From contig CAVVXN010000003.1 in assembly GCA_963752285.1 (NCBI GenBank), positions 192,001 through 256,000 on the forward strand: a stretch of 64,000 bases of DNA, given 5' to 3'. The translations under genes were made by a program, and so were the position numbers. The stretch is from an uncultured Planctomycetota bacterium. GTDB taxonomy: Bacteria > Planctomycetota > PLA2 > JAEUHO01. The notes beneath the pieces are model-generated. The model worked only from the letters and a program-made list of their open reading frames with translations. It was not told the origin of the DNA and did no database searches. Positions 36,180 through 56,961 of the stretch are shown in pieces; position 1 is the stretch's first letter, and the number at the start of each line of letters is the position of its first letter.

Positions 36180-38714
<2,535 letters not shown>

Positions 38715-40669: not shown

Positions 40670-41158
40670 ATGTCCGCCGACGACCCCGTGCGTGAGAGCC
40701 TCCTCCACCTCCTCTCCGGCGGCGGCGCGCACCGGCCGATGGAGGCCGCCCTCGCCGGATGGCCCGAGGCGCTCCGCGGCGTCCGGCCCGACGGACAGCC
40801 CCACACGCCGTGGCGTCTCCTCGAGCACGTCCGCATCGCGCAATCCGACATCCTGGAGTTCTGCCGCGACCCGGGCCACGTCTCGCCCGCCTGGCCCGAG
40901 GGCTACTGGCCGGCGGGAGACGCGCCGCCCGACGCCGCGGCGTGGGACCGGTCCGTCGCCGCGTTCCTCCAGGACCTTGCGGCCATGAAGGCGCTCGTGC
41001 GGGACCCCGGGAACGACCTCCTGGCCTCCCTGCCCCACACGGACGGAGCGAGCCTGGTGCGGGAGGCGCTCCTGGTCGCGGACCACAACGCGTACCACCA
41101 GGGGCAGATCATGCTCCTCAGGCGCCTGCTGGGGCTGGCCCCGCACGCCGGGCCCTGA
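40670..41158 (+). CDS. DinB family protein
   Basis: HTPWRLLEHVRIAQSDI, DHNAYHQGQI. Confidence 0.88.
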   Translation: MSADDPVRESLLHLLSGGGAHRPMEAALAGWPEALRGVRPDGQPHTPWRLLEHVRIAQSDILEFCRDPGHVSPAWPEGYWPAGDAPPDAAAWDRSVAAFLQDLAAMKALVRDPGNDLLASLPHTDGASLVREALLVADHNAYHQGQIMLLRRLLGLAPHAGP

Positions 41159-41211
41159 GGCCGGCGAACCCGGACCGGGGCGCGGGCGGCGGCGCGAAGG
41201 ACAAAGCCCGG

Positions 41212-42622
41212 TCAGCGACCGCCGCGGCGCGGCGCGGGCCACCACCTCGCGGAGGCCTTTGTCGCCCATGCCCGGTCCTTGCCCTCGTGGCAGAGGAGGC
41301 ACGCGTTCGGCGTCTTCGCGTCGTCCGGGTTCCGCCGCGGGTCGGGGCTCCAGTACGTGTGCGAGCGGAGTCGCTGCGTGCCCGCGTGGTTCACGATGCG
41401 CGGCATGTGGCACTCGACGCACCGGGCCCCGGCGTTCTTCGCCGGGTCCGACGCCGTGGTGGGTGTGCGCCGCGAGGGCAGGCGCGGCGCGGTACGCCCG
41501 GTGGCACGCGAGGCAGAGCGCGTTGTTCTCGATCGGGAGCTTCAGCGCTGCCGCGCGGTGCGGCTCGTGGCACGTGGTGCAGGTGGGGGACTTCTCGCGT
41601 CCCCTCGCGAGCATGTCGGATTCGCGGTAGTCGGTGAGCTGCTGGTGGTGGTTCGCCGAGGACCCGTCCGGCCAGAACTCCTTCGCGTCGTGCTCGGGCG
41701 TCACCTGGACGTAGTGGGCGTCGAGGACCGTTCCCGGGGTCATGTTGTAGGGGTACGCCAGCCGCCCCGGCAGCCCGGCCGGCGCGCCCTGCTCGGGTCC
41801 CGCCGTCCCCCGGGAGTGGCACTTGCCGCACGCGTCGAGCTGACGGTCGTGGGGAAACGCGCTCGGGGAGAGGATGTTGCCCTTGCCCCCGCCCGCCTTC
41901 ACGTGTTCGAGCCCGGGCCCGTGGCACGCCTCGCAGCCGATCGCCAGCTCCTTCCACCGCGTGTGCCACGTGTGGTCGCTCGCGTCGTAGCCGAGGTCGA
42001 GCCCCGTCGTGTGGCATCCGGCGCACTGGAGCTGCCAGGCCCACTTCTCCGCCGTCCAGAACCCGTCCGTGCCGGGTTCGCCCGACGCGAGTCCCAGCCA
42101 CTCCACGTACTCGTGGTCCTTCCGGTTCCACTGCACGGGCAGCACGCGATACGAACCGTCCGGCAGCTTCGTGAGGTAGCGCTGCTTGTAGCGATTCCCG
42201 ACCGTGCGTTCGATCGCGTACCGGTGCGGCTTCCCGTCGTCGCCCGGCGCCTCGATCACGTAGTGGTCGCCCTCGCGGATCATCTCCATCCGACGACCCT
42301 GGCCGACCTCCAGCACGACGCCGTCCGTCGAGAAGTCGCCGATCACCGAGTGCGGGGTCGCCGCCTGCTCCATGTACGAGTGGAGCGAGGTCTTCCAATC
42401 GGCGTAGGCCTGCGCGTGGCAGGACGCGCACGCGTCGGATCCGACGTAGCCGGGCACGACGTCGTCCAACACCTCGGCGACGCGGCCCGGCGCCTTCGCA
42501 ACCGGTGCGGGGGAGGCCGGGGCGTCCGCGCGCGCGAGCGTCCAGGCGGCGAAGAGAACGGCCACCAGGGCGACGAGGGCCAGGCCCTCTGCGCGACGGG
42601 CGGTCCCGTTCCGGTCCGGCAT
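41212..42622 (-). CDS. Octaheme c-type cytochrome, frameshift near 41455
   Basis: Signal peptide; CASCH, CAGCH, CEACH, CGKCH, CTTCH, CLACH, then in shifted frame CVECH, CLLCH. Confidence 0.9.
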
Positions 42623-43354
42623 GCGCAGGCTCCGTCGTGGTGCGCGCGCTCGACGCGTCACCCCCGGAGTACACGGTCGCAATCCGGATGCCGCGCGCCG
42701 GACCCCGCGAGCCTGCCGAGGCCCGCTTGCGCGAGACGCCCATCGACCGGAGCCCCGCGCCTCGACGCGCCACACGTCGGCCGCCCTCGAGCCACCACGA
42801 TCCCGGATCGCGGCGCCGCGTTGCTACGGATTCGCAACGGGCCGGCCGGGGCGTTGGCGCGCGCGGCGGTGGGAGGGAACGCTTGCGGACGGCCCGGGAC
42901 TACGGCCCGGAGAAGACGGATACCGTCTTACCATCGACGACGCGACAACCAGGTTGCCGGACGAGCCCGAACCGAGCGCCCGGCGGGCCCCGCGGCGGGC
43001 CGGCGTCCTGACCCCCATCGCGTCCCGGGTGACGGCCGGCCCGTCGTTCCGCCGACCGGCGCGAAGGCCACGGAGCTTCATTTCCAGCCCTTCTAGGGCT
43101 GTGAGCCACCCCGGTCCGGGTCCCCGGAGCCGGACGGGGACCGGCCGGACGCGCCGGCATCGCAACCCGTCGCTCCGGGGCGGCCGGAGGCGGTTCTTCC
43201 CCGGAACGTGCACGCGTGCTCCGCCGCTTCTCCATACGCTCCGCTTATCGCCCCCATGTCCAACTCGATCGTGTGCTACCGACCGGCGCGTGGCCACAAT
43301 GCTGCGCGAAAGAGGCGGGTTGTCCGAGGGCGGTCTGCCCGAACCGGAGAGGCC

Positions 43355-46300
43355 ATGTCCAGAGCGCGATTCCCTTTCTACGTCCTCGTGGGTGCCCTGT
43401 TGGCTGCGCTGCCGGCGTGCGGTGGCAGCGGTCAAGGGCTGCGTTCACCCGACAACCCCGTGCGCGTGATGAGCACGTCCATCCCGCCGGCCCTGTCGGG
43501 CCAGAAGGTGGATTTCCCCATCGACCTGAACGGCGGGTGTGGCGGCCCCTACGTGATCAAGCTGATCCAGGGGAAGCTTCCGCCGGGCGTCGTGTTCGAC
43601 AACGCGACGCACAGCATGAACGGCACGCTCCTGATGGACGGGACGTACTCGTTCACGTTGCAGATCGACGACACGGGTTGTAACCCGTTCTCGTCCACGC
43701 AGGCGAAGTTCACGTGGAACGTCGGGGTCGGGGACGTGGTCGTCGTCGACGTCCTGCAGGACGGCAACAGCGCGCTCCTCCCCGCGGGCGCCGAGGCGTT
43801 CAACCCGGACTACCCCGCGCTCCCGACGACCGTCTACAACCAGAATACCTCCCTCCAGTTCGTGGTCGCCGGCGGCGTCGGCCCGTACAAGATGAAGCTG
43901 TACGACGACCCCGCGCTCCAGGACGGGAACCTCCCGCTCGGCGTCGTGGTGGCCTCGGGCTCCCCGAATCTCGTCGGGTCGCCCGTAGAGGTGGGCCCCG
44001 GTGGCGGCGCGTTCCTGCTCTCGTTCGAACTGACGGACGCGGTGGGGACGAAGGGGTACTTCCACGCGTACTGGAAGATCGACACCCCGCCGATCACGAT
44101 CGCGACGACCAGCCTCGGGAACGGCGTCTGTGGCCAGACGTACAGCGAGACGTTCTTCCTCGTGGACGGCGTTCCGCCCTTCACGCACGACCTCGTGGAG
44201 CAGGGGCTCCCGCTCGGCTACACGTCCGACCAGAACCCGAATCCGCAGGATCCCGGCGCGGACGTCCTCTACAACCAGGCCGGGCCGCCGACGGTCAACC
44301 CGTCACAGGCGCTGAACAAGATCGACGCCTACGTCTATCCCACGCCCAGCGCGATCGGCCCGAACTACGCCGTCTCGAACCAGGGCGCCCCGCCCGAGGG
44401 CATCTACATGGTCGAGGACACGGGAGCCCTGACCGGGATCCCGCGCCGGCGCGGCACGTTCTCGATCAACTACCACGTCCAGTCCTCGCTGGTCCCGAAC
44501 TCGTTCGGGCAGCACGCGTGGCGAACCTACACCTTCCAGATCAGCCCGTCGGGCTCGCTGGCGCAGGACCCGTCATACACGGTGGACGGCGTGTTCCGTC
44601 CGATCGCGCCGTACAGCCGGATCGGGGACTTCGAGCTCGGCCAGGTCTACAACCCGGACGGCGGCGTCGCGGGCCTGCAGCTCAAGGCCACCGGCGGCTG
44701 CCCGCAGGACGGCAAGTCCGACCACCCGCACCTCTCGCAGGTGGTCGCGGACCCGGCGGTCGGCGAGGTGCTCGGCGCGTACACGTGGGCGGTCGACTGG
44801 GACCCGCTGTCCCTGGGCACGCCGCCGATCCCGCACGTCGAGCTGCTTCCGTCCGGCGTGTTCCGCGTGGTGCCCGGTGAGCAGAGCCAGCTCGCCACGC
44901 AGGCCTTCCAGACGTTGACGTTCACGGTGAACGACTACGCGTTGCCGACCTCGTTCGCGAGCACGAACTCACAGTACGTACGCACCTCGGTCGGACCGGA
45001 TGTCCTCGTCATCACCGAGTCCACGACCTCGTTCGCCTTCGGCAACACCACCTCGTCGATCACCACCGGGTTCAACGACCCGAACATGAAGGTGAAGGTG
45101 ATGCTCCCGTACAGCTCGGGGGCGGTCGTCCGTTCGCTCGACGACGCAAAGGACATGGCGGGAACGGGCGCGAGCCAGCACACGATCCCGAGCACGGCGG
45201 GCAGCGGCAAGACGCTGAAGGACCTGCTGGAGGGCGTGGACCTCCTGCGCACCTCGGTGAACGCGACCGGATGGTGGGACGACACCTGGTCCCTCAACCC
45301 GAAGGCGGGCATCGCGGCCGCCCACGGCGACATGAACCAGGGGTACGGCTACTACGGTCTCACGTACTCCTACGAGTACTGGTCCACCACCAGCTCGTAC
45401 ACGTACAGCTACGGGGCGAACCCCGAGAGCACGTGCGTGCAGATCCCGGTGTGCACGACGCCGGGCGTGACCGAGGACCGGGACGCCGGCGTCTACACGA
45501 GCGGCGGGAAGCTCTACCTCTTCGACTCGAGCAGCTACATCGGCGCGTTCATCGTGCGTCCGGAGTCGAAGGTCTACGTGCCGATCGCGTTCAACAAGTC
45601 CTCGACGGGCTACTACTCGTTCGGGGACGTCTGGGTGAACGCGTACTCGAACACGCAGACCGTCATGTCGATCTGGAAGGTCCCGCAGATCACGATCAGC
45701 CCCGACGGGCGCTTCGCGGCGCTCAAGCTCGGCACGAGCACGACGCAGAACCTCTCCCAGGGAGGGGAGCTGGCGTCGAGCAGCCGGCTCGTGATCTTCT
45801 CGCTCACGGGCGAGCGGATCGCGGCGTGGGGCAACAAGACCTGGATCGTGGTCCAGTCGGGGGCCAACGGCGGCTACTCCCACACCTCGAGCACGGGGGA
45901 GCGGTTGATCGCGGCGAGCCTCGCGCTCTCCAACGACAACCTCTACTACGTGTGCGGCTGCAACGACTTCACCTCGTCCGAGTGGTACTCGTGGCGCTAC
46001 GAGTGGGTGTACCGCTACGGGATCCAGAGCGGCGGAAGCTCGGGGGCCCTCCTGGCCTGCGGTGACTCGGAGTGGACCAACACGAATGGGAACCCCCTCC
46101 AGCTGCCGATGCAGCGCTACTACGAGGCGGGGTACGGCTACAACTACGGCACGTACGGGTACAACTACTGCGACTCCACGATCTACTACGGCGGATACGC
46201 GGGCCAGGAGTGGGGCAACCCGCCGATGCCGTTCCGCATGAGCGCGGACGGCCATACCGTCGCGATCGTCGCGGGCCGTTCCACCACGTCGAGCGCCGAC

Positions 46301-47929
46301 TCGACGACCATGTACATGAGCCACGTGTGGGTAGACGACGCCACGGGCGTCCACCGGCTCTCGTCGCGGGTGCGGCACCAGCCGTGGGGCGGCGGGCGCG
46401 GGTCCGCCCTCTCCGGCGGCTCGCTCAGCAGCTACACGTACCAGTGGGGCATGCAGTGCGGCCCGAGCACGCAGCTCGAGGTCGCGGACGACGGCTCGAG
46501 GGTGGCCGTGGTGGTCAACCGCTACAGCGGCACGGTCTACTACTCCAGCTCGTACGCCTACGAGCTCGGGTACGACCGCCAGGACGTGATCGCCTTCGAG
46601 CCCGCGGTGAGCGGGACCTGGGCGGGCGGCGCGGTCGAGCGGCAGGTCACGGGCTCGGAGTCCGCGACGACCCCGATCTTCTCGACCAACCTCAACTGGA
46701 AGTTCGGCGCGCTCGTCTTCACGAAGGACGGCAACGGCCTGGTCTTCTGGGGCGGGGCCGCGGCGTACTACCCGAACAACTTCAACACCTCCTCGTACCA
46801 GCCCTACGTGGGCGCGCCGGGCCTCACGGGCAGCCTGTACCTGTACAGCTTCCCGAACAGCACGGTGACGCACATCCTGGACTACGACGAGGGCGGGAAC
46901 TCGGACGACATCGGGAAGGTGTACCCGACGCAGTCCACCCAGGTGAACCCGTCGTTCACGGACTACTCGTTCCCGGGCGCCCGGAACATCGGGACGGTGA
47001 AGCCGCTCGGCGGGTTCATGTCGCCGAACCGGAACTTCTACTACATCTCTACGGCCCACGCGCTGAGCTCGACGCTGCAGGACGCCACGCAGCTGATCGG
47101 GATCAACGTGCGGAGCCTCGACTCGACGCAGGCGATCAACGGGCACTCGGACGGCCGCGCATTCGCGCTCGGCGGCACGAGCTGGCCCACGCACCGGAGC
47201 TGGATCCCGACCTACGGGTACAGCTCTTCCTACTGCTACTGCGGGTACTACGGGATCTTCTACCAGTACATCGCGCCCGGATGCGAGTACGGCACGATGC
47301 GCGTGATGACCCGCGGCGGCAAGGTGTTCTACGGCTCGCACTACCAGATCTTCGGGCCGACACCGACATACTCCTCGTACACGTACGCCGGACCGATCGA
47401 GACGACGTACCACGGCTGCGACGCGGCCTTCGCGGGACAGGTGGGGTACTTCGACGCGAACGTCGGCGGCACGCCGGTGATGCTCACCACGCTGCCCGAG
47501 ACGATCATCATGAACAACTACTCGTCCACCACCTACCGGACGATGAAGTACCTGGAGGTCTCGAGCGACGAGACGGCAGTGGCGTTCGTCTACGCGCCGT
47601 TCGCGTCCACGAGCTACAGCTACCCGGTCAACTGCGCAGCCGAGCGAGTCGGCTGGATCGGGAACCTCATCACGAACGCCACGACGGGCGCCGTGGTCAG
47701 CAAGTCGGTGGTGGCCGACCTGCAGGGCGCAGCCGGGCGCATCTCGTCGTCGATCGCGCACGACTCCACCGGGACGAGCGTGTTCTACGGCGACGCGGTC
47801 TCGGGGGCCGACGAGAAGGACAAGTACATCTACCAGACGGCCGTCAGCTCGGCGGGCGCCGGGACGCCGAAGAAGTACTCGTTCTCCGGTGACCCGAAGC
47901 GCTACAACATCCTGAACGCCGGCCGCTGA
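43355..47929 (+). CDS. Giant lipoprotein copy A (1524 aa): about 4 putative Ig domains plus Tyr/Ser-rich beta-propeller-like region
   Basis: LPAC lipobox; GKLPPGV..GTYSFTLQIDD-type Ig repeats; recurring SPDG/SADG/ADDG/TKDG blade motifs; GGAGAGG RBS. Confidence 0.85.
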   Translation: MSRARFPFYVLVGALLAALPACGGSGQGLRSPDNPVRVMSTSIPPALSGQKVDFPIDLNGGCGGPYVIKLIQGKLPPGVVFDNATHSMNGTLLMDGTYSFTLQIDDTGCNPFSSTQAKFTWNVGVGDVVVVDVLQDGNSALLPAGAEAFNPDYPALPTTVYNQNTSLQFVVAGGVGPYKMKLYDDPALQDGNLPLGVVVASGSPNLVGSPVEVGPGGGAFLLSFELTDAVGTKGYFHAYWKIDTPPITIATTSLGNGVCGQTYSETFFLVDGVPPFTHDLVEQGLPLGYTSDQNPNPQDPGADVLYNQAGPPTVNPSQALNKIDAYVYPTPSAIGPNYAVSNQGAPPEGIYMVEDTGALTGIPRRRGTFSINYHVQSSLVPNSFGQHAWRTYTFQISPSGSLAQDPSYTVDGVFRPIAPYSRIGDFELGQVYNPDGGVAGLQLKATGGCPQDGKSDHPHLSQVVADPAVGEVLGAYTWAVDWDPLSLGTPPIPHVELLPSGVFRVVPGEQSQLATQAFQTLTFTVNDYALPTSFASTNSQYVRTSVGPDVLVITESTTSFAFGNTTSSITTGFNDPNMKVKVMLPYSSGAVVRSLDDAKDMAGTGASQHTIPSTAGSGKTLKDLLEGVDLLRTSVNATGWWDDTWSLNPKAGIAAAHGDMNQGYGYYGLTYSYEYWSTTSSYTYSYGANPESTCVQIPVCTTPGVTEDRDAGVYTSGGKLYLFDSSSYIGAFIVRPESKVYVPIAFNKSSTGYYSFGDVWVNAYSNTQTVMSIWKVPQITISPDGRFAALKLGTSTTQNLSQGGELASSSRLVIFSLTGERIAAWGNKTWIVVQSGANGGYSHTSSTGERLIAASLALSNDNLYYVCGCNDFTSSEWYSWRYEWVYRYGIQSGGSSGALLACGDSEWTNTNGNPLQLPMQRYYEAGYGYNYGTYGYNYCDSTIYYGGYAGQEWGNPPMPFRMSADGHTVAIVAGRSTTSSADSTTMYMSHVWVDDATGVHRLSSRVRHQPWGGGRGSALSGGSLSSYTYQWGMQCGPSTQLEVADDGSRVAVVVNRYSGTVYYSSSYAYELGYDRQDVIAFEPAVSGTWAGGAVERQVTGSESATTPIFSTNLNWKFGALVFTKDGNGLVFWGGAAAYYPNNFNTSSYQPYVGAPGLTGSLYLYSFPNSTVTHILDYDEGGNSDDIGKVYPTQSTQVNPSFTDYSFPGARNIGTVKPLGGFMSPNRNFYYISTAHALSSTLQDATQLIGINVRSLDSTQAINGHSDGRAFALGGTSWPTHRSWIPTYGYSSSYCYCGYYGIFYQYIAPGCEYGTMRVMTRGGKVFYGSHYQIFGPTPTYSSYTYAGPIETTYHGCDAAFAGQVGYFDANVGGTPVMLTTLPETIIMNNYSSTTYRTMKYLEVSSDETAVAFVYAPFASTSYSYPVNCAAERVGWIGNLITNATTGAVVSKSVVADLQGAAGRISSSIAHDSTGTSVFYGDAVSGADEKDKYIYQTAVSSAGAGTPKKYSFSGDPKRYNILNAGR

Positions 47930-47951
47930 CGCGGTCGGTCGGGGACCCTCG

Positions 47952-47988
47952 CGCCGCCCGCGGGCTTCGGCCCGCGGGCGGCGTTTTT
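47952..47988 (+). terminator. Rho-independent terminator
   Basis: Perfect 14-bp stem CGCCGCCCGCGGGC-TTCG-GCCCGCGGGCGGCG followed by TTTTT. Confidence 0.93.
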
Positions 47989-48105
47989 CGTACGTGGGGA
48001 CCGCGCGGTCCCGCGCTCCGCGGGCACTGCGCACGTGGCGCCGCACGGGCTGCGGCGGATCGTGATCCTCGACGCGGCCCAATCACCACAAGAGCATGAT
48101 GAGTG

Positions 48106-48143
48106 TGAGAGTGAGTCTCAATTTGAGTTGAGATTTATTCGCA
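48106..48143. promoter_or_regulatory. Two Fur-family-like 7-1-7 operator boxes
   Basis: TGAGAGTGAGTCTCA (48106-48120) and TGAGATTTATTCGCA (48129-48143) in an AT-rich island upstream of TAGAAT (48182-48187). Confidence 0.55.
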
Positions 48144-48243
48144 GCCATCGTCTTTCGGTGTCCGGCGGGGATGGGATTTCGTAGAATACGCGCCGAAAGA
48201 GGCGGTTCTTCTCTTGGGCAGCATTCCCCGGATCGGAGAGGCC

Positions 48244-51200
48244 ATGTCGAGAGCGCGAATCCACGCGTACATCCTGATCGGCGTGCTGCTGGCAGTGCTC
48301 CCTGCCTGCGGCGGCGGACAGGGACTCCGGATGCCGAGCGACGCCGTGCGCGTCACGAGCACGTCGATCCCGGCGGCGCTCTCCGGACAGCCGCTGGCGT
48401 TCGAGATCCCGCTCGAAGGGGGCTGCGGCGGTCCCTACGTCTTCCATCAGCTGAGTGGGAGGCTGCCCAAGGGCGTGGCCCTCGACAGCGCCACGCACAG
48501 CATCCGCGGGACGCCGCTCGAGGACGGGACCTTCACCGTCAAGATCCAGATCGACGACACGGGCTGCAACCCGTTCTCTTCCACGTCCGCCACGTTCAGG
48601 ATCGACGTGGGTGTGGGGGACGTGGTCGTCTGCGACGTGCTCCGCGACGGCAACTCGGCGCTGATCCCCGTCGGGGGTACGAGCTTCAACCCGGACTACC
48701 CCGCGCTCCCGACGACCGTCTACAACGAGTCCACCTCCCTCCAGCTCGTGGTCGCCGGTGGCGTGGGCCCGTACAAGATGAAGCTCTACGACGATCCCGC
48801 GCTCCCGGACGGGAACCTCCCGCTCGGCGTCGTGGTGGCGTCGGGCTCGCCGAACCTCGTCGGGTCGCCGGCCGAGGTGGGGCCGGGCGGCGGGCCGTTC
48901 CTCCTCTCGTTCGAGCTGACGGACGCCGTCGGGACGAAGGGGTACTTCCACACGTACTGGAAGATCGACACCCCGCCGATCACGATCGCGACGGCCACCA
49001 TCGGGAACGGCGTCTGCGGCCAGACGTACAGCGAGACGTTCTTCCTCGTGGACGGCGTGCCGCCCTTCACGCACAACCTCGTGGAGCAGGGGCTCCCGGT
49101 CGGCTACACGTCCGACCAGAATCCGAACCCGCAGGACCCAGGCGCGGACGTCCTCTACAACCCGGCCGGGCCGCCGACGGTCAACCCGCCGCAGGCGCTG
49201 AACAAGATCGACGCCTACGTCTATCCCACGCCCGACGCCGCCGGTCCGAACTACGACGTCTCGAACCAGGGCGCCCCGCCCGAGGGCATCTACATGGTCG
49301 AGGACACGGGAGCCCTGACCGGGATCCCGCGCCGGCGCGGCACGTTCTCGATCAACTACCACGTCCACTCCTCGCTGGTCCCGAACTCGTTCGGGCAGCA
49401 CGCGTGGCACACGTACACCTTCACGATCAGCCCGTCGGGCTCGATGGCGCAGGACCCGTCGTACACGGTGGACGGCGTGTTCCGTCCGACCGCGCCGTAC
49501 AGCCGGATCGGCGACTTCGAGCTCGGCCAGGTGTACAACCCGGACGGCGGCGTCGCGGGCCTGCAGCTCAAGGCCACCGGCGGCTGCCCGCAGGACGGTA
49601 AGTCCGACCACCCGCACCTCTCGCAGGTGGTCGCGGACCCGGCGGTCGGCGAGGTGCTCGGCGCGTACACGTGGGCGGTAGACTGGGACCCGCTGTCCCT
49701 GGGCACGCCGCCGATCCCGCACGTCGAGCTGCTCCCGTCCGGCGTGTTCCGCGTGGTGCCCGGTGAGCAGAGCCAGCTCGCCACCCAGGGCTTCCAGACG
49801 TTGTCGTTCACGGTGAACGACTACGCGTTGCCGACGTCACTCGCGAGCACGAGCACCCAGCGGGTCCGTACGTCCGTCGGTCCCGACGTGTTGATCATCA
49901 CCGAGTCCACGACCTCGTTCACGGGGGCGAACACGACGTCGTCGGACACCAGCCGGCTGAACGACCCGAACATGAAGGTGAAGGTGATGCTCCCGTACAG
50001 CTCGGGGGCAGTCGTCCGTTCGCTGGACGACGCGAAGGACATGGCGGGAACGGGCGCGAGCCAGCACACGATCCCGAGCACGGCGGGCAGCGGTAAGACG
50101 CTGAAGGACCTGCTGGAGGGCGTGGACCTCCTGCGCACCTCCGTGAACGCGACGGGATGGTGGGACGACACGTGGTCCCTGAACCCCAAGGGCGGTCAGG
50201 CGGCCGCGCACGGCGACGCCAACCAGGGGTACGGCTACTACGGCCTCACCTACGCCTACGAGTACTGGTCCACCACCAGCACCTACTCATACAGCTACGG
50301 GGCGAGCCCCGAGACCACCTGCGTGCAGATCCCGGTGTGCACGACGCCGGGCGTGACCGAGGACCGGGACGCCGGCGTCTACACGAGCGGCGGGAAGCTC
50401 TACCTCTTCGACTCGAGCAGCTACATCGGCGCGTTCATCGTGCGTCCGGAGTCGAAGGTCTACGTGCCGATCGCGTTCAACAAGTCCTCGACGGGCTACT
50501 ACTCGTTCGGGGACGTCTGGGTGAACGCGTACTCGAGCACCCAGACGACGATGTCGGCCTGGAAGATCCCGCAGATGACGATCAGCCCCGACGGGCGCTT
50601 CGCGGCGCTCAAGCTCGGCACGAGCACGACGCAGAACCTCTCCCAGGGAGGGGAGCTGGCGTCGAGCAGCCGGCTCGTGATCTTCTCGCTCACGGGCGAG
50701 CGGATCCCGGCCTGGGGCAACAAGACCTGGATCGTGGTCCAGTCGGGGGCCAACGGCGGCTACTCCCACACCTCGAGCACGGGGGAGCGGTTGATCGCGG
50801 CGAGCCTCGCGCTCTCCAACGACAACCTCTACTACGTGTGCGGCTGCAACGACTTCACCTCGTCCGAGTGGTACTCGTGGCGCTACGAGTGGGTGTACCG
50901 CTACGGGATCCAGAGCGGCGGAAGCTCGGGGGCCCTCCTGGCCTGCGGCGACTCGCAGTGGACCAACACGTCCGGGAGCCCCATGCAGCTCCCGATGCAG
51001 CGCTACTACCAGGCGGGGTACGGCTACAACTACGGCACGTACGGGTACAACTACTCCGACTCCACGGTCTACTACGGCGGATACGCCGGGGTCGAGACGG
51101 GCAGCCAGCCGATGCCGTTCCGCATGAGCGCGGACGGCCACACGGTCGCGATCGTCGCGGGTCCGTCCACGTCGTCGAGCGGCGACTCTACGACGATGTA

Positions 51201-52818
51201 CATGAGTCACGTGTGGGTCGATGACGCCACGGGGGTCCACCGGCTCTCGTCGAGGACACGGCACATGCCGTGGGGTGGGGCCCGGGGCTCGACCCTCTCG
51301 AGCGGGTCGCTCAGCAGCTACACGTACCAGTGGGGCGTGCAGTGCGGACCGAGCACGCAGCTCGAGATCTCCGACGACGGCTCGAGGGTGGCCGCGGTGG
51401 TCAACCGCTACAGCGGAACCGTCTACTACTACACCTCGTACGCCTACGAGCTCGGCTACGACCGGCAGGACGTGATCGCCTTCGAGCCCGCGGTGAGCGG
51501 GACCTGGGCGGGCGGCGCGGTCGAGCGGCAGGTCACGGGCTCGGAGTCCGCGACGACCCCGATCTTCTCGACCAACCTCAACTGGAGGTTCGGCGCGCTC
51601 GTCTTCTCGAAGGACGGCGCCGGCCTGTTCTTCTGGGGAGGCGCTGCGAGCTACTACCCCAACAACTTCAACACGAGCTCCTATCAGCCCTACACCGGAG
51701 CCGTGGGCCTGGCGGGCAGCCTGTACGTGTACAGCTTCTCGGCTGGCACGGTGACCCACATCCTGGACTACGACGAGGGCGGGAACTCGGACGACATCGG
51801 GAAGGTGTACCCGACGCAGTCCACCCAGGTGAACCCCTCGTTCACGGACTACTCGTTCCCGGGCGCCCGGAACATCGGGACGGTGAAGCCGATCGGCGGG
51901 TTCATGTCGCCGAACCGGAACTTCTACTACATCTCGACCGCCCAGGGGTTGAGCGCGTCGCTGTCGGACTCCACGCAGCTCGTGGCCATCAACGTCCGCA
52001 GCATCGACGCCACGCAGACGATCAACGGCCACTCGGACGGTCGGGCGTTCGCGCTCGGCGGCACGAGCTGGCCCACGCACCGGAGCTGGGTCCCGACCTA
52101 CGGGTCCAGCTCGTCGTACATGTACGTCGCGTACTACGGCATCTACTACCAGTACCTCGCGCCCGGTGGACTGTTCGGAACGATGCGGGTCATGACCCCG
52201 GGGGGCAAGGTCTTCTACGGGTCGCACTACATGATCTTCGGGCCGTCCACCGGGGCCTCCGCGAGCTACTCGTACGGCGGTCCGATCGAGTCGACGTACC
52301 ACGGCTGCGACGCGGCGTTCGCGGGACAGGTGGGGTACTTCGACGCGAACGTCGGCGGCACGCCGGTGATGCTCACCTCGCTGCCCGAGACGATCATCAT
52401 GAACAACTACTCGTCCACCACCTACCGGACGATGAAGTACCTCGAGGTCTCGAGCGACGAGACGGCGGTGGCGTTCGTCTACGCGCCGTTCGCGTCCACG
52501 AGCTACAGCTACCCGGTCAACTGCGCCGCCGAGCGAGTCGGCTGGGTCGGGAACCTCATCACGAACGCCACGACGGGCGCCGTGGTCAGCAAGTCGGTGG
52601 TGGCCGACCTGCAGGGCGCCGCCGGACGCATCTCGTCGTCGATCCAGCACGACTCCACCGGGACGAGCGTGTTCTACGGGGACGCGGTCTCGGGGACCGA
52701 CGAGAAGGACAAGTACATCTACCAGACGGCCGTCAGCTCGGCGGGCGCCGGGACGCCGAAGAAGTACTCGTTCTCCGGTGACCCGAAGCGCTACAACATC
52801 CTGAACGCCGGCCGCTGA
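48244..52818 (+). CDS. Giant lipoprotein copy B (1524 aa), tandem paralog of copy A
   Basis: Same architecture, LPAC lipobox, identical C-terminus (GDPKRYNILNAGR). Confidence 0.85.
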   Translation: MSRARIHAYILIGVLLAVLPACGGGQGLRMPSDAVRVTSTSIPAALSGQPLAFEIPLEGGCGGPYVFHQLSGRLPKGVALDSATHSIRGTPLEDGTFTVKIQIDDTGCNPFSSTSATFRIDVGVGDVVVCDVLRDGNSALIPVGGTSFNPDYPALPTTVYNESTSLQLVVAGGVGPYKMKLYDDPALPDGNLPLGVVVASGSPNLVGSPAEVGPGGGPFLLSFELTDAVGTKGYFHTYWKIDTPPITIATATIGNGVCGQTYSETFFLVDGVPPFTHNLVEQGLPVGYTSDQNPNPQDPGADVLYNPAGPPTVNPPQALNKIDAYVYPTPDAAGPNYDVSNQGAPPEGIYMVEDTGALTGIPRRRGTFSINYHVHSSLVPNSFGQHAWHTYTFTISPSGSMAQDPSYTVDGVFRPTAPYSRIGDFELGQVYNPDGGVAGLQLKATGGCPQDGKSDHPHLSQVVADPAVGEVLGAYTWAVDWDPLSLGTPPIPHVELLPSGVFRVVPGEQSQLATQGFQTLSFTVNDYALPTSLASTSTQRVRTSVGPDVLIITESTTSFTGANTTSSDTSRLNDPNMKVKVMLPYSSGAVVRSLDDAKDMAGTGASQHTIPSTAGSGKTLKDLLEGVDLLRTSVNATGWWDDTWSLNPKGGQAAAHGDANQGYGYYGLTYAYEYWSTTSTYSYSYGASPETTCVQIPVCTTPGVTEDRDAGVYTSGGKLYLFDSSSYIGAFIVRPESKVYVPIAFNKSSTGYYSFGDVWVNAYSSTQTTMSAWKIPQMTISPDGRFAALKLGTSTTQNLSQGGELASSSRLVIFSLTGERIPAWGNKTWIVVQSGANGGYSHTSSTGERLIAASLALSNDNLYYVCGCNDFTSSEWYSWRYEWVYRYGIQSGGSSGALLACGDSQWTNTSGSPMQLPMQRYYQAGYGYNYGTYGYNYSDSTVYYGGYAGVETGSQPMPFRMSADGHTVAIVAGPSTSSSGDSTTMYMSHVWVDDATGVHRLSSRTRHMPWGGARGSTLSSGSLSSYTYQWGVQCGPSTQLEISDDGSRVAAVVNRYSGTVYYYTSYAYELGYDRQDVIAFEPAVSGTWAGGAVERQVTGSESATTPIFSTNLNWRFGALVFSKDGAGLFFWGGAASYYPNNFNTSSYQPYTGAVGLAGSLYVYSFSAGTVTHILDYDEGGNSDDIGKVYPTQSTQVNPSFTDYSFPGARNIGTVKPIGGFMSPNRNFYYISTAQGLSASLSDSTQLVAINVRSIDATQTINGHSDGRAFALGGTSWPTHRSWVPTYGSSSSYMYVAYYGIYYQYLAPGGLFGTMRVMTPGGKVFYGSHYMIFGPSTGASASYSYGGPIESTYHGCDAAFAGQVGYFDANVGGTPVMLTSLPETIIMNNYSSTTYRTMKYLEVSSDETAVAFVYAPFASTSYSYPVNCAAERVGWVGNLITNATTGAVVSKSVVADLQGAAGRISSSIQHDSTGTSVFYGDAVSGTDEKDKYIYQTAVSSAGAGTPKKYSFSGDPKRYNILNAGR

Positions 52819-52840
52819 CGCGGTCGGTCGGGGACCCTCG

Positions 52841-52876
52841 CGCCGCCCGCGGGCTTCGGCCCGCGGACGGCGTCTT
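52841..52876 (+). terminator. Degenerate copy of the terminator hairpin
   Basis: Same hairpin with one stem mismatch (G>A) and TCTT in place of TTTTT. Confidence 0.6.
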
Positions 52877-52991
52877 GGCCGGCGCCGACGGGACATTCGG
52901 CCCCCCGAGGCGCCCGGGTGCCGTTGCCCGTCGTCGCCGCACCCGATAGAGTCCCCCCCGGCCCGACCTGCCGGGCCCGGAGGAGACTCGA

Positions 52992-53510
52992 ATGAGACGT
53001 ACGACGACCCTTCTGTCGGCGCTGCTGCTCGTCGGCGGCTGCCTCGCCCTCGGTCGGTCCGAGGACGCCGACGCGTTGCCGGCGGTGGCCCGCGCGCGGC
53101 CCCACGCCCTGTTCCAGGTGGCGATCGACGGCGTCGCCGTCGGCGGCTTCAAGAGCGTGGACGGCCTCTCGGCCGAGGTGGAGACCGTGGAGTACCGGGA
53201 CGGGGGCGACAACCTCGTTCGCAAGCTGCCCGGCCGCCTCGCGTTCGGGAGCGTCACGCTCGTGCGCGACCTGACCAAGGACACCACGTTCTTCGACTGG
53301 ATCCACGAGGCCGCGTCGACGAGCGGCCCCGACCGCAAGGACGTGACGGTCACCGTGTACGACCCGAAGAGCGGGGACACCGTCCGGACCTTCAACCTCG
53401 TGGACTGCTTCCCCACGCACCTGGCCGTCAAAGCCCTCGACGCGAAGGGCGGGGGCGAGGTCGCGATCGAGGAGATCGTCCTGGCGGTCGAGAACGTGAG
53501 TCTCGACTGA
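52992..53510 (+). CDS. T4 gp19-like phage tail-tube protein with N-terminal signal peptide
   Basis: FQVAIDG..GGFKSVDGLSAEVETVEYRDGG..RKLPGR..VTLVR..FFDW..RKDVTV..CFPT..VAIEEIVLAVE; AGGAG RBS; MRRTTTLLSALLLVGGCLALG leader. Confidence 0.9.
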   Translation: MRRTTTLLSALLLVGGCLALGRSEDADALPAVARARPHALFQVAIDGVAVGGFKSVDGLSAEVETVEYRDGGDNLVRKLPGRLAFGSVTLVRDLTKDTTFFDWIHEAASTSGPDRKDVTVTVYDPKSGDTVRTFNLVDCFPTHLAVKALDAKGGGEVAIEEIVLAVENVSLD

Positions 53511-53794
53511 GAGCCTATGGAGGAATCGAGTCCGGGGCCTCGGCCGGATGCGGCGCCGCGATGCGGCGTTGCTCGTCGTCAGCGACCCACGGCGGGGTCG
53601 CCTCCGGCTCGCACCATGCCTTGCGCCCCCGCGCTCGGCCCCGGGGCCCCGGCCCACGCATTCACACGCGGAGCGGCGCGGCGGCGGGCGCTGCGTGCGT
53701 GCCGCCCTGGAAGCGGCACGCACGACCCCCCCGACGGGCGTAGGAAAGGCCCGGGCCCGGTGCGGCGGTGTGCCGGCGCGCCGGAGGACGTGCC

Positions 53795-54814
53795 ATGCAG
53801 ATCGGCATGATCGGCCTCGGCCGGATGGGTGCGGACATGACCCGCCGCCTCCTCGCCGGTGGTCACGAGTGCGTCGTCTTCGACCTCGATGAGGGCCGCG
53901 TGCGCGCGCTCGAACGAGCGGGCGCCACCGGCGCCAGCTCCGTCGAAGCGCTCGTCGGTCGGCTCGCCCGCCCGCGCACGGTGTGGCTGATGGTGCCCGC
54001 GGGCGCCGTGGACCGCGCGTTGGCCGATCTGGCGCCTCGGCTCGAAGCCGACGACGTCGTGGTGGACGGAGGCAACACGAACCCGCAGGACGACCGACGC
54101 CGTGCGGCGCGGCTCGAGGAGCGCGGGATCCATCACGTGGACTGCGGGACGAGCGGCGGAGTCTGGGGCCGGGAAGGTGGCTACTGCCTGATGGTCGGGG
54201 GCGACGACGCGATCGTCTCCCGGCTGGACCCTCTGTTCCGGACGCTCGCGCCGGGACGGGACGCGGCGCCGCCCACCGCCGCTCGCGCCGCCCGGTCCGG
54301 GACGGCCGAGGACGGGTATCTCCACTGCGGCCCGCACGGCGCGGGGCACTTCGTCAAGATGGTGCACAACGGCATCGAGTACGGCGTGATGGCCGCGTAC
54401 GCCGAGGGGCTCGCGCTCCTCGGGCACGCGGCCGCGGGCCTCGAGACCCGGGAGACCGACGCGGAGACGACGCCGCTTCGGGACCCCGGCGCCTACGCCT
54501 ACCGCTTCGAGCTGGCCGACGTGGCCGAGGTGTGGCGACGGGGCAGCGTGATCCGGTCGTGGCTGCTCGACCTCGCCGCGAGCGCCCTCGCGAGGGACCC
54601 TGGCCTCGAGGCCTTCGCGGGGCGCGTCTCGGACTCCGGGGAGGGGCGCTGGGCCCTCCAGGCCGCGATCGACGTCGGGGCGCCCGCGCCGGTGCTCGCG
54701 ACCGCGCTCTTCGCCCGCTTCGCCTCGCGCGGCGAGGCGGACTACGCCGGTCGGCTCCTCTCGGCGATGCGCCACGAGTTCGGAGGGCACCAGGAGAAGG
54801 GGCCGGGACGATGA
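53795..54814 (+). CDS. gnd: 6-phosphogluconate dehydrogenase (decarboxylating, short type)
   Basis: GLGRMG, DGGN, DCGTSGG, KMVHNGIEYG, SDSGEGRW, MRHEFGGH. Confidence 0.95.
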   Translation: MQIGMIGLGRMGADMTRRLLAGGHECVVFDLDEGRVRALERAGATGASSVEALVGRLARPRTVWLMVPAGAVDRALADLAPRLEADDVVVDGGNTNPQDDRRRAARLEERGIHHVDCGTSGGVWGREGGYCLMVGGDDAIVSRLDPLFRTLAPGRDAAPPTAARAARSGTAEDGYLHCGPHGAGHFVKMVHNGIEYGVMAAYAEGLALLGHAAAGLETRETDAETTPLRDPGAYAYRFELADVAEVWRRGSVIRSWLLDLAASALARDPGLEAFAGRVSDSGEGRWALQAAIDVGAPAPVLATALFARFASRGEADYAGRLLSAMRHEFGGHQEKGPGR

Positions 54815-56178
54815 CGCGCCCGCGCTCCGACGCCCTGGTCTTCTTCGGCGCCACGGGCGATCTCGCGAAGAAGAAGGTGTTCCCGGCGCTCTACGCGCTC
54901 GCCCGCCGTCGCCGCCTCGACGTGCCGGTGATCGGCGTCGCCCGGAGCGCCGGGAGCGTCGACGACCTCGTAGAGCGCGCGCGAGAGGCGGCGGAACGCG
55001 GCGGCGCGCTCGACGAGGTGGCTTTCGGCCGGCTTGCCAAGCGCCTCCGCTACGTCCAGGGCGACTACGGCGACGACGCGACGTTCGACGCGCTCCGGCG
55101 CGAGCTCGGCTCGGCCGCGCGACCGCTGCACTACCTGGCCATCCCGCCGGGCGCGTTCGCCACCGTCGTCCGGGGACTGGCGCGCTCGGGCTGCGCGAAG
55201 GGCGCGCGCATCGTGGTCGAGAAGCCGTTCGGACGCGACCTGGCCTCCGCGAAGGCCCTGAATCGGACCCTCCGCGAGGTGTTCGACGAGAGCGCGGTGT
55301 TCCGGATCGACCACTACCTCGGGAAGGAACCGGTGCTCAACCTGCTCGTATTCCGGTTCTCGAACACCTTCCTCGAGCCCATCTGGAACCGGAACTACGT
55401 GCGGAGCGTCGAGGTCACGATGGCCGAGTCGTTCGGCGTCGAGGGCCGCGGCGCGTTCTACGAGGAGGCCGGCGCCATTCGGGACGTGGTCCAGAACCAC
55501 CTCCTGCAGGTCGTGGGGTTCCTCGCGATGGAGCCGCCGCTGGCGACCTACGACGAGGCGATCCGCGACGAGCAGGTGAAGGTGTTCCGCGCGATCCGTC
55601 CCCTCGCGCCGAAGGACCTGGTCCGGGGACAGTTTCGGGGCTACCGCGACGAGGCCGGCGTCGCGCCGGACTCGACGGTCGAGACCTACGCGGCCGTGCG
55701 GCTCTGCGTGGACTCCTGGCGATGGGACGGCGTGCCCTTCTTCGTGCGGGCCGGGAAACGCCTCCCGGTCACGGCCACGGAGGTCTTGGTCACGCTCAAG
55801 CGACCGCCGCACCGCGCCGTGTCGAGGAGCGAGTCGAACCACCTTCGCTTCCGCCTCGGACCGGACGTCGCCATCGCCCTGGGCGCGCGCACGAAGCGGC
55901 CGGGCGACGAGCTGCTCTCGGATCCGACGGAGCTCCGGGTCGTGAGCCGGCCGGAGGGCGACGAGATGGACGCCTACGAGCGTCTCCTCTCGGACGCGAT
56001 GGACGGCGACGGGACGCTCTTCGCGCGCCAGGACGAGGTGGAGCAGGCGTGGGCGATCGTCGATCCGGTCCTCGGCGGGGTCACCGAGGTCCTGCCGTAC
56101 GAGCCCGGGTCGTGGGGGCCCGAGGCCGCGGCGCGCCTGCCCGAGAGCGTCGGCGGCTGGCACGACCCCGAGCCGTGA
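54811..56178 (+). CDS. zwf: Glucose-6-phosphate dehydrogenase
   Basis: GATGDLA, EKPFG, RIDHYLGKE, RDVVQNH, RWDGVPF. Confidence 0.96.
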   Translation: MTRPRSDALVFFGATGDLAKKKVFPALYALARRRRLDVPVIGVARSAGSVDDLVERAREAAERGGALDEVAFGRLAKRLRYVQGDYGDDATFDALRRELGSAARPLHYLAIPPGAFATVVRGLARSGCAKGARIVVEKPFGRDLASAKALNRTLREVFDESAVFRIDHYLGKEPVLNLLVFRFSNTFLEPIWNRNYVRSVEVTMAESFGVEGRGAFYEEAGAIRDVVQNHLLQVVGFLAMEPPLATYDEAIRDEQVKVFRAIRPLAPKDLVRGQFRGYRDEAGVAPDSTVETYAAVRLCVDSWRWDGVPFFVRAGKRLPVTATEVLVTLKRPPHRAVSRSESNHLRFRLGPDVAIALGARTKRPGDELLSDPTELRVVSRPEGDEMDAYERLLSDAMDGDGTLFARQDEVEQAWAIVDPVLGGVTEVLPYEPGSWGPEAAARLPESVGGWHDPEP

Positions 56179-56943: not shown

Positions 56944-56961
56944 CGCGCAAACGGGCGTCGT

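What the first reader, a model, noticed from the sequence alone, without database searches (positions are those of the whole stretch)
43355..52870. Tandem paralogs with mosaic identity, suggesting gene conversion with variable loops
Seen: both genes are exactly 4575 nt, with one codon lost early and one gained late. Some tracts are nucleotide-identical (e.g. 45434-45650 = 50320-50536) and the 3' end plus about 45 nt downstream is near-identical. The first Ig domain and short Tyr/Ser/Thr patches are diverged with many synonymous changes (e.g. YCYCGYYGIF vs YMYVAYYGIY; TPTYSSYTYAG vs STGASASYSYGG). Inference: an old duplication homogenised by conversion, with ligand-contacting loops kept different.
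Basis: partly seen in the sequence, partly recalled or inferred. Interest (0 to 1): 0.7.

Follow-up and report, generated by a model that had tools for sequence, protein, structure and literature searches.

The report
Gene-converted tandem propeller lipoprotein genes
Two neighbouring copies of a large, uncharacterised surface-lipoprotein gene in an uncultured planctomycete have repeatedly overwritten parts of each other, a familiar way for duplicated genes to evolve; nothing shows that the parts still differing are kept different on purpose.

Summary
Genes A (43355-47929) and B (48244-52818) are each 4575 nt, differ by one codon early and one late, and share identical tracts of up to 236 nt.

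The identity is a mosaic. Seventeen near-identical blocks (3% different, pS 0.07) alternate with 17 diverged blocks (27% different, pS 0.48). Synonymous changes cluster far beyond chance. The near-identical blocks are not slow-evolving: A against a third paralog has pS 0.38 there. The best reading is an old tandem duplication partly homogenised by repeated short-tract gene conversion. Tandem arrays of the same family in two other genomes show the same signal.

The claim that ligand-contacting loops are kept different is not supported:
- pN/pS is below 1 in all 17 diverged blocks.
- The pattern does not recur in the other arrays.
- The largest tyrosine-rich loops are homogenised.
- The largest diverged block is the signal peptide plus the anchor-proximal Ig domain.

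The proteins are 1524-aa lipoproteins: a stalk of Ig/cadherin-like domains carrying a large beta-propeller. The family is small, unnamed and restricted to Planctomycetota. Function is inferred as surface binding. This is a new member of a known kind, of moderate interest.

The parts
43355..47929 (+). Gene A, 1524-aa lipoprotein (stalk of Ig-like domains plus propeller head)
   Evidence: ORF and translation. GC3 is 0.95, like the rest of the genome. RBS GGAGAGG lies before the ATG.
48244..52818 (+). Gene B, the tandem paralog of A, 1524 aa
   Evidence: He_PIG (PF05345) matches residues 36-122 at 31.9 bits against a cut-off of 24.
43355..43420 (+). Signal peptide and lipobox of A (MSRAR...LPAC, Cys22), followed by a Gly-rich linker
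   Evidence: Read from the translation. The same layout is seen in 14 of the 17 family members inspected; in the other 3 the simple pattern did not pick a start. The lipobox consensus is recalled, and no lipoprotein predictor was run.
43355..43801 (+). Largest diverged block (A codons 1-149; B 48244-48687): signal peptide, linker, first Ig-like domain and start of the second
   Evidence: 138 differences in 446 nt. pS 0.51, pN 0.23. A-B path 0.50 against A-C5a 0.42.
43421..44986 (+). Stalk: four to five beta-sandwich (Ig/cadherin-like) domains
   Evidence: AlphaFold model of A 22-560: pLDDT 90.3, pTM 0.75. Foldseek matches protocadherin, CELSR, SbsB and contactin domain strings.
44987..47926 (+). 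Head: one large all-beta, propeller-like domain with long Tyr/Ser/Gly-rich loops
   Evidence: Model of A 545-1524: pLDDT 82.7, pTM 0.90. All Foldseek hits are propeller proteins. The best VIA matches are propellers of S9 peptidases, DPP-IV and TolB, with Z 10-12.7.
45434..45650 (+). 217-nt tract identical to B 50320-50536
   Evidence: A short-read contig X2 record 14 covers B 50320-50844 with 0 differences.
45827..46062 (+). 236-nt tract identical to B 50713-50948, the longest one
   Evidence: X1 record 3 covers A 45795-46062 with 0 differences.
47219..47395 (+). Diverged block at A codons 1289-1348 (aligned to about B 52105-52284), holding the quoted Tyr-rich patches and the second one-codon indel
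   Evidence: 45 differences in 179 nt. pS 0.40, pN 0.19.
47396..47977 (+). Homogenised 3' block (13 differences in 531 nt of CDS) plus 48 identical nt past the stop
47951..47984 (+). Intrinsic terminator of A: a 15-pair stem followed by TTTTT. The copy after B (52840-52873) has one stem mismatch and a broken T run.
43300..43354 (+). About 55 nt of leader weakly alike upstream of both genes (B: 48189-48243), including the RBS. This is the 5' edge of the duplicated unit.
   Evidence: Local alignment.
47986..48188 (+). Unique spacer between the two repeat units, with a locally A+T-richer stretch at about 48090-48190
   Evidence: No sigma-70-like match was found.

Best explanation
A and B are an old tandem duplication. 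The repeat unit is about 4.7 kb: a 55-nt leader, the CDS and the terminator, with about 200 nt of unique spacer between the copies. The gene encodes a lipid-anchored stalked-propeller protein.

Repeated short-tract, non-reciprocal homologous recombination (interlocus gene conversion) between the two direct repeats has overwritten about 70% of the gene. It did so in at least several events of different ages. The result is 17 homogenised blocks of 21-531 nt.

The 17 blocks that escaped (10-446 nt) keep the original, synonymously saturated divergence. I infer that they persist mainly because they are too diverged to seed or carry strand exchange: the longest identical run inside any of them is 17 nt. 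I do not think selection holds them apart.

Shown: the mosaic, its statistical significance, the two age classes, and the same signal in other arrays of the family. Inferred: the RecA-type mechanism, the divergence-barrier explanation, and surface binding as the protein's function.
For: Two age classes.
- Two-state HMM: 26.8% against 3.0% differences, delta lnL 176.
- pS 0.482 and pN 0.204 in diverged blocks; pS 0.072 and pN 0.017 in homogenised blocks. Among codons coding the same amino acid, 123 of 293 differ in diverged blocks and 55 of 1015 in homogenised blocks.
- Synonymous-only clustering exceeds all 5000 permutations. The share of same-amino-acid codons with a synonymous difference falls from 25% next to an amino-acid change to 2.8% more than 25 codons away.
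- Diverged blocks are homogeneous in divergence (p 0.44); homogenised blocks are heterogeneous (p 0.002). Differences in diverged blocks are polarised evenly against C5a: 142 A-like, 137 B-like.

The homogenised blocks are not intrinsically constrained. A-C5a pS there is 0.38.

Run test on polymorphic sites. A/B has concordant runs of 117, 94 and 71 sites, against a null maximum of 69 in 5000. A/C5a and B/C5a are not significant (p 0.09).

Segment trees. The A-B path is 0.50 in the N-terminal segment and 0.087 in the rest.

Same signal elsewhere in the family.
- G016_4/5 has a run of 143 sites (null maximum 46) and dS of 0-0.03 over codons 51-250, against 0.1-0.96 elsewhere.
- G001 C10a/b has a run of 29 (null maximum 24).
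- G001 C2mid/up has p 4e-4.
- Tandem copies cluster by genome in the family tree.

Independent support for the sequence. Short-read contigs reproduce both copies across the identical tracts together with their copy-specific flanking letters (X1 record 3, X2 record 14).

Barrier to exchange. Identical runs inside diverged blocks are at most 17 nt, against up to 236 nt in homogenised blocks.
Against: - No conversion event is observed directly.
- Only one genome carries this locus. No close strain was found, so orthology and paralogy cannot be contrasted block by block.
- Even in the N-terminal segment A and B still pair (support 74/76). The incongruence is in depth, not in topology.
- With GC3 at 0.95, pS saturates near 0.45-0.5, so the duplication cannot be dated.
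- The HMM blocks were defined by difference density, which inflates the pS contrast. The synonymous-only tests avoid this.
- The genome is a metagenome-assembled one (5 contigs, 89% complete). No read spanning both copies was available.
- The environmental contigs that mix A and B letters could be k-mer assembly chimeras at depth of about 3.
Confidence: 0.8

Rival explanations
1. One reading: the diverged patches are ligand-contacting loops, and selection keeps them different between the copies by removing convertants there.
For: Amino-acid differences are enriched in coil: 65 of 557 residues against 29 of 423, odds ratio 1.8, p 0.012. They are also enriched in lower-confidence parts of the model (rho -0.32). 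Diverged blocks are slightly more variable family-wide (entropy 1.54 against 1.40). There is a weak correlation with the A/C5a profile (rho 0.28) and with C2mid/up (rho 0.34).
Against: - pN/pS is 0.13-0.81 in all 17 diverged blocks.
- There is no correlation with G016_4/5, G016_2/3, G001 C10a/b or C2mid/dn (rho -0.05 to 0.07).
- In G016_4/5 the Ig1-Ig2 region is the homogenised part.
- The biggest Tyr-rich loops are homogenised, and Tyr is not enriched in diverged blocks.
- The biggest diverged block is next to the lipid anchor, not in the head.
Confidence: 0.15
2. A recent duplication in which patches diverged quickly through relaxed or positive selection on amino acids, with no conversion.
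For: The diverged patches do hold most of the amino-acid changes.
Against: Synonymous changes are about as clustered as amino-acid changes. pS is 0.48 in diverged blocks against 0.07 in homogenised ones, and 42% against 5.4% of same-amino-acid codons differ. pS in diverged blocks equals that between A and C5a or the G001 copies.
Confidence: 0.03
3. Assembly or polishing artefact: the identical tracts, or the whole second copy, were produced by collapse or cross-polishing in a metagenome assembly.
For: The genome is a metagenome-assembled genome. No spanning reads were available. X1 and X2 may come from the same sample as the assembly.
Against: - The two copies have different upstream regions and a unique spacer.
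- Independently built short-read contigs match each copy exactly across identical tracts and into copy-specific sequence.
- Tandem arrays with the same kind of mosaic occur in other genomes (G016, G001).
- Homogenised blocks are not uniformly identical (dS 0.076, heterogeneous).
Confidence: 0.04
4. The mosaic arose the other way round: a young duplicate pair received many short divergent segments from outside, either from alleles of other strains or from other paralogs.
For: With only two sequences, homogenised tracts and imported tracts look alike. Environmental contigs show strains with other combinations of letters.
Against: - No donor exists in the genome. A and B are 47-87% identical to C5a in every 40-codon window, never near-identical, and there is no significant shared run with C5a.
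- Derived changes in diverged blocks are split evenly between A and B, 142 against 137.
- Divergence is equal across the 11 diverged blocks of 30 nt or more that were tested (p 0.44).
Confidence: 0.07
5. Cycles of unequal crossing-over (array expansion and contraction creating hybrid genes), as opposed to short-patch conversion, produced the mosaic.
For: Copy number differs among relatives: 2, 3 and 5 in tandem. A Staphylococcus aureus tandem lipoprotein cluster is described as evolving this way (PMC2568036, abstract read).
Against: Seventeen alternations, with homogenised tracts as short as 21-58 nt, would need many precisely placed crossovers. Both genes kept the same length and register.
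Confidence: 0.08
6. Targeted hypermutation by a diversity-generating retroelement.
For: Tyr/Ser/Thr-rich variable patches superficially recall such targets.
Against: - There is no adenine bias: 93 of 455 differences are at A in copy A, where A makes up 17.6% of bases, and C-G exchanges dominate at 190 of 455.
- No RVT_1 match was found in the own genome, which is 89% complete.
- Differences are spread over 17 blocks, not one C-terminal region.
Confidence: 0.01

Closest known systems
Tandem lpl (lipoprotein-like) paralog cluster of Staphylococcus aureus (Tsuru and Kobayashi 2008, PMC2568036; abstract read, body not read)
   Same: Tandem arrays of lipoprotein paralogs, reshaped by homologous recombination between copies. 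Segments within one ORF have different histories.
   Different: In lpl one central conserved region serves as the crossover site between two variable ends, and the arrays rearrange among strains. Here 17 short homogenised tracts alternate with diverged ones, the 3' end and terminator are homogenised, and the 5' end is diverged. The proteins are unrelated.
Concerted evolution of bacterial paralogs by gene conversion, for example the cases surveyed in PMC6053082 (search listing and start of abstract only) and tufA/tufB (recalled)
   Same: Paralogs within a genome are more alike than they are to relatives in other genomes, with a mosaic of identity.
   Different: The surveyed cases are mostly conserved housekeeping genes. 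This is a lineage-restricted surface protein in direct tandem, and only partly homogenised.
Helicobacter pylori babA/babB and related outer-membrane-protein gene conversion (PMC4552749 and PMC3960876 seen in the search listing only; details recalled)
   Same: Conversion between paralogous surface binding proteins, giving chimeric genes.
   Different: Those loci are dispersed, belong to a host-associated pathogen, and have documented phenotypic switching. No phenotype or switching is shown here.
Cassette-type antigenic variation (pilE/pilS, vlsE, msp2; review PMC4534519 seen in the listing only; details recalled)
   Same: Segmental, non-reciprocal transfer between tandem or nearby homologous sequences of a surface protein.
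   Different: Those systems have one expression site plus silent, promoterless partial cassettes. Here both copies are complete genes with an RBS and a signal peptide, and A has its own terminator.
Paralog G000_C2 of the same genome, described earlier in this scan as a 'stalked propeller lipoprotein of Planctomycetota' (finding e1-2778508)
   Same: Same family (48% identity to A) and the same architecture, as found independently here.
   Different: That copy is solitary. The present pair is tandem and gene-converted.
Beta-propeller domains of S9 peptidases, DPP-IV and TolB
   Same: Best structural matches of the head: Z 10-12.7, with 270-400 residues aligned. SPDG/SADG/SDDG strand motifs recall PD40 repeats (read from the sequence; motif recalled).
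   Different: There is no peptidase domain, no Pfam propeller match, and no PDB match by sequence. The head is about 980 residues with long Tyr-rich insertions.

Membership tests
Interlocus gene conversion / concerted evolution | Copies in one genome are closer to each other than to relatives in other genomes | tested here: met
   A and B pair at 100/100, and the tandem copies of G001 and G016 cluster by genome. The arrays are not positional orthologs, so lineage-specific duplication also fits this feature taken alone.
Interlocus gene conversion / concerted evolution | Significantly long shared fragments at polymorphic sites (a GENECONV/Sawyer-type test) | tested here: met
   Runs of 117, 94 and 71 sites against a null maximum of 69 in 5000 permutations. 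This used my own implementation, not the GENECONV program.
Interlocus gene conversion / concerted evolution | Synonymous divergence differs between segments, so segments have different coalescence times | tested here: met
   pS 0.482 against 0.072. Synonymous-only dispersion is 4.68 against a null maximum of 1.76. A-C5a pS is 0.38 in the homogenised blocks.
Interlocus gene conversion / concerted evolution | Phylogenetic incongruence between segments | tested here: inconclusive
   Depth differs more than five-fold (A-B path 0.50 against 0.087), but the topology is the same, with weak support (74/76) in the N-terminal segment.
Interlocus gene conversion / concerted evolution | Recombinant alleles seen in populations or over time | tested here: inconclusive
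   Of the 40 variant places listed (40 more were not shown), 31 lie where A and B differ, and 29 of those carry the other copy's letter. X1 record 7 has 8 A letters followed by B letters at 44 later differing sites. These are k-mer contigs at depth of about 3, so chimeras are not excluded.
Bacterial lipoprotein | Signal peptide ending in a lipobox with an invariant Cys | tested here: met
   MSRAR..., a hydrophobic stretch, then LPAC followed by GG, in A and B. Similar starts were picked in 14 of 17 family members. This rests on reading the sequence; the consensus is recalled and no predictor was run.
He_PIG putative Ig domain (PF05345) | Pfam match above the gathering score | tested here: met
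   B residues 36-122 score 31.9 bits against a cut-off of 24. A itself has no hit at E of 1 or below. Several relatives carry a precomputed PF05345 match. The model shows beta-sandwich domains.
PD40/DPP-IV-type beta-propeller | Propeller fold of the C-terminal 980 residues | tested here: inconclusive
   All Foldseek hits are propeller proteins, but TM-scores are 0.13-0.22. VIA Z is 10-12.7 over 270-400 residues. There is no Pfam or PDB sequence match. Blade number was not determined because no coordinates were available.
Cassette-type antigenic variation system | One expressed locus plus silent partial donor cassettes | tested here: not met
   Both copies are full-length, each with an RBS, a start codon and a signal peptide. 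A has its own terminator.
Diversity-generating retroelement target | Adenine-specific differences and a nearby reverse transcriptase | tested here: not met
   No adenine bias. No RVT_1 match in the own genome, which is 89% complete.
S. aureus lpl-type tandem cluster | A single central conserved recombination region flanked by 5' and 3' variable regions | tested here: not met
   Seventeen alternating blocks, a diverged 5' end and a homogenised 3' end.

The most novel reading that the evidence does not exclude
The tandem arrays of this family could work as a standing shuffling system. Ongoing short-tract exchange between complete, expressed copies would keep generating new combinations of stalk and propeller-loop segments within populations of a free-living soil or wetland planctomycete. 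That would diversify a surface binding protein, or a phage receptor, without silent cassettes or dedicated enzymes. The environmental contigs that mix A and B letters in other combinations would then be real recombinants.
Probability: 0.12. Interest if true: 0.6.

Novelty: new member of a known kind. Interest (0 to 1): 0.33.

Why it matters
This is a clean, quantifiable example of partial concerted evolution in an uncultured, free-living bacterium, and it recurs in several tandem arrays of the same family. It shows that the small 'stalked propeller lipoprotein' family of Planctomycetota evolves by tandem duplication plus conversion. Trees of this family therefore cannot be read as gene genealogies, and copy-specific segments cannot be taken as functional specialisation without further tests. 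It does not reveal a new mechanism or a function.

Tried and rejected
Family and defence libraries.
- NCBIfam, PADLOC and PHROGs gave nothing meaningful for A or B.
- A PDB sequence search with a family profile returned 0 hits.
- The protein atlas gave only sub-threshold leads, at 0.86-0.87, to PD40/WD40-like and LpqB-like propellers.

Search for close strains.
- A protein scan of metagenome contigs gave 56 pattern matches, none confirmed.
- An exact 29-nt pattern from the longest identical tract gave 0 matches.
- The two big protein searches found only the same family. The first returned 36 hits, the nearest non-self at 63%. The second returned 96 representatives out of 1.84 billion.

Public sequencing runs.
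- Nine runs hold part of the stretch, with the best share at 0.26. All are Logan contigs, and none is raw or long reads.
- Parts without cover say nothing.
- The single X6 'joint' from 43756 to 48845 rests on a 22-nt side and is out of register between the copies, so I treat it as spurious.

Linkage and synteny.
- The tail-tube-like gene downstream of B was checked for linkage with the family. It is single-copy in this genome. It was found in 1 of 5 relatives searched, on a different contig from that genome's family members.
- The ClpC-like and 6PGDH-like neighbours lie on other contigs than the G001 arrays.

Other checks.
- No sigma-70-like promoter was found in 42700-53600.
- Mapping the diverged patches on the three-dimensional model was not possible because coordinates are not exposed. 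Only secondary structure and confidence could be used.
- Literature: two full-text searches turned up no paper on this protein family or on gene conversion in Planctomycetota lipoproteins. That is a statement about those two searches only.
Full report
WHAT IS THERE. The window is about 75% G+C, and the two genes are about 67%. Their third-position G+C is 0.95, like the rest of the genome, so the dip reflects amino-acid composition and not foreign origin. Gene A (43355-47929) and gene B (48244-52818) lie head to tail on the + strand. Each starts at an ATG preceded by GGAGAGG, a motif also found before two other paralogs of the genome. Each is 4575 nt and 1524 aa.

THE DUPLICATED UNIT. About 55 nt of leader are weakly alike upstream of both genes. 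Identity continues 48 nt past the stop, into a 15-pair terminator hairpin with a T run after A (47951-47984). The copy after B has a stem mismatch and a broken T run. About 200 nt of unique spacer separate the two units.

OBSERVATION CHECK.
- There are two one-codon gaps, at alignment columns 25 and 1336.
- Identity is 4114 of 4575 nucleotide columns and 1351 of 1525 amino-acid columns.
- The quoted 217-nt tract is exact, and a 236-nt tract (45827-46062 = 50713-50948) is longer still.
- The quoted Tyr-rich patches are at A residues 1293 and 1336.

The clumping is far beyond chance.
- The longest identical run is 236 nt, against a null maximum of 123 in 10,000 permutations.
- The variance/mean of differences per 90 nt is 8.6.

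THE MOSAIC HAS TWO AGES. A two-state HMM on nucleotide differences fits 176 log-likelihood units better than one state. It splits the alignment into 17 diverged blocks (10-446 nt, 26.8% different, 435 codons) and 17 homogenised blocks (21-531 nt, 3.0% different, 1090 codons).
- In diverged blocks pS is 0.482 and pN 0.204. In homogenised blocks pS is 0.072 and pN 0.017.
- Because the blocks were chosen by difference density, I also tested synonymous changes alone. Among 1308 codons coding the same residue, 178 differ. Their dispersion (4.68) exceeds all 5000 permutations (maximum 1.76). Their frequency falls from 25% next to an amino-acid change to 2.8% more than 25 codons away.
- Diverged blocks are equally diverged (chi-square p 0.44), as expected for one old split. 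Homogenised blocks are heterogeneous (p 0.002), as expected for several events of different ages.
- The homogenised blocks are not constrained at the DNA level. A against the third paralog C5a has pS 0.38 there. In diverged blocks A-B pS (0.48) equals A-C5a (0.51) and A-G001 (0.51).
- With GC3 at 0.95, pS saturates near 0.45-0.5, so the duplication is 'old' but cannot be dated.
- The changes are not adenine-biased, and C-G exchanges dominate at 190 of 455. No reverse transcriptase was found in the genome. A retroelement mechanism is therefore out.

COMPARATIVE EVIDENCE. The genome (4.64 Mb, 5 contigs, 89% complete) has five family members: A, B, C5a (64% identity to A), C2 (48%) and C5b (41%).
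- Among 40 relatives, 24 have a match. These are 23 of 24 genomes of the same taxonomic family and 1 of 16 outside it.
- Tandem arrays occur in G001 (three copies plus two) and in G016 (five). They do not share neighbours with the A/B locus.
- In the family tree, tandem copies cluster by genome.
- In the N-terminal segment the A-B path (0.50) is as long as A-C5a (0.42), and A+B is weakly supported (74/76). In the rest the A-B path is 0.087 against 0.46, with full support. This is a difference in depth, not in topology.
- A Sawyer-type run test on polymorphic sites gives A/B runs of 117, 94 and 71 sites (null maximum 69 of 5000). It gives nothing for A/C5a or B/C5a (p 0.09).
- The same test finds clear signals in other arrays: G016_4/5 with 143 sites (null maximum 46), G001 C10a/b with 29 (null maximum 24), and G001 C2mid/up with p 4e-4.
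- In G016_4/5, dS is 0-0.03 over codons 51-250 and 0.1-0.96 elsewhere.

Conversion between tandem copies is thus a property of the family.

READS. Only low-depth k-mer contigs of soil runs (X1, X2; one study, possibly the source of the assembly) and wetland runs (X3, X6) were available.
- X1 and X2 contigs match both copies exactly. This includes pieces that run from copy-specific letters through the identical tracts (X1 record 3; X2 record 14). That argues against a polishing artefact.
- Of the 40 variant places listed (40 more were not shown), 31 lie where A and B differ, and 29 of these carry the other copy's letter.
- One X1 contig laid on B has eight A letters at 50971-51010 and then B letters at 44 further differing sites.
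- These could be real recombinants. They could also be chimeras formed at shared 31-mers at a depth of about 3. I cannot tell which.

ARE THE DIVERGED PATCHES 'KEPT DIFFERENT'? I find no support beyond what any protein would show.
- pN/pS is 0.13-0.81 in all 17 diverged blocks.
- The A/B divergence profile does not correlate with G016_4/5, G016_2/3, C10a/b or C2mid/dn (rho -0.05 to 0.07). It correlates only weakly with A/C5a (0.28) and C2mid/up (0.34).
- Diverged blocks are barely more variable across the family (entropy 1.54 against 1.40). They are not Tyr-enriched (8.1% against 7.3%).
- The two largest Tyr-rich loops (A 663-690 and 922-950) are homogenised.
- The largest diverged block covers the signal peptide and the first Ig-like domain. 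This lies next to the lipid anchor (an inference from the N-terminal Cys), not in the head.
- Amino-acid differences are mildly enriched in coil: 65 of 557 residues against 29 of 423, p 0.012.

A simpler account is a divergence barrier. Inside diverged blocks the longest identical run is 17 nt, against up to 236 nt in homogenised blocks. That is below the length usually needed for efficient RecA-type exchange (a recalled figure of roughly 20-30 nt or more). Once a patch has drifted far enough, it is rarely overwritten. This step is inference.

WHAT THE PROTEINS ARE. Each has a signal peptide with the lipobox LPAC and a Gly-rich linker.
- Next come four to five beta-sandwich domains. The model of A 22-560 has pLDDT 90.3. 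Its matches are protocadherin, CELSR, S-layer SbsB and contactin domain strings. He_PIG is above cut-off in B only.
- Then comes a 980-residue all-beta head. Its model has pLDDT 82.7 and pTM 0.90. It matches only propeller proteins, best the propellers of S9 peptidases, DPP-IV and TolB, at Z 10-12.7 over 270-400 residues.
- No enzyme domain, defence-system match or phage-family match was found.
- The family is tiny: 96 representatives among 1.84 billion proteins. Where it is named at all, it is named only 'hypothetical protein' of Planctomycetota MAGs.
- An earlier finding of this scan on the solitary paralog C2 reached the same architecture (e1-2778508).
- I infer a surface binding or adhesion role, at about 60%. 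Nothing tests it.

VERDICT. This is a real, well-supported case of partial gene conversion between tandem paralogs of an uncharacterised planctomycete lipoprotein family. It is a known evolutionary process in a new family. The adaptive reading of the variable patches is unsupported.

Noticed in passing
window 52992-53510 (+): A 172-aa protein of the T4 gp19 tail-tube family lies 174 nt downstream of B (Pfam PF06841, E 6e-32; PHROG 'tail tube'). It is the only match in this genome. It was found in 1 of 5 relatives searched, on a different contig from that genome's family members. No sheath or baseplate genes were looked for.
   Followed up: partly
L028/L029 (G016:C3:136982-161510): Five tandem copies of the same lipoprotein family. 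Copies 4 and 5 share a tract of about 600 nt that is nearly identical (codons 51-250, dS 0-0.03), in genes that are otherwise at dS 0.1-0.96.
   Followed up: partly
window 38951-42775 (-): One long open frame carries both a class-I Trp/Tyr tRNA synthetase domain (residues 942-1223) and multihaem cytochrome c motifs (residues 246-428). This is probably two genes in one high-G+C open frame. Starts were not determined.
   Followed up: no
window 48090-48190: A locally A+T-richer stretch (GAGT/TGAG-rich) sits in the unique spacer just upstream of gene B. It may be B's own promoter region. The simple scan found no sigma-70-like match.
   Followed up: no
window 27610-31221 (-): A 1200-aa open frame with gene-like codon bias (GC3 0.89) has no Pfam match.
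   Followed up: no
window 53768-57080 (+) and 57948-59123 (-): An ordinary pentose-phosphate cluster (6PGDH-like, G6PD, 6-phosphogluconolactonase) is followed by an ATP:guanido phosphotransferase (McsB-like). A ClpC-like ATPase lies at 36180-38339 (-). The lipoprotein pair therefore sits among housekeeping genes.
   Followed up: no
window 43735-43756 / 48845 (run X6): One short contig joins A 43756 to B 48845 with 7 extra letters. The aligned side is only 22 nt and the join is out of register, so it is probably from another organism.
   Followed up: no
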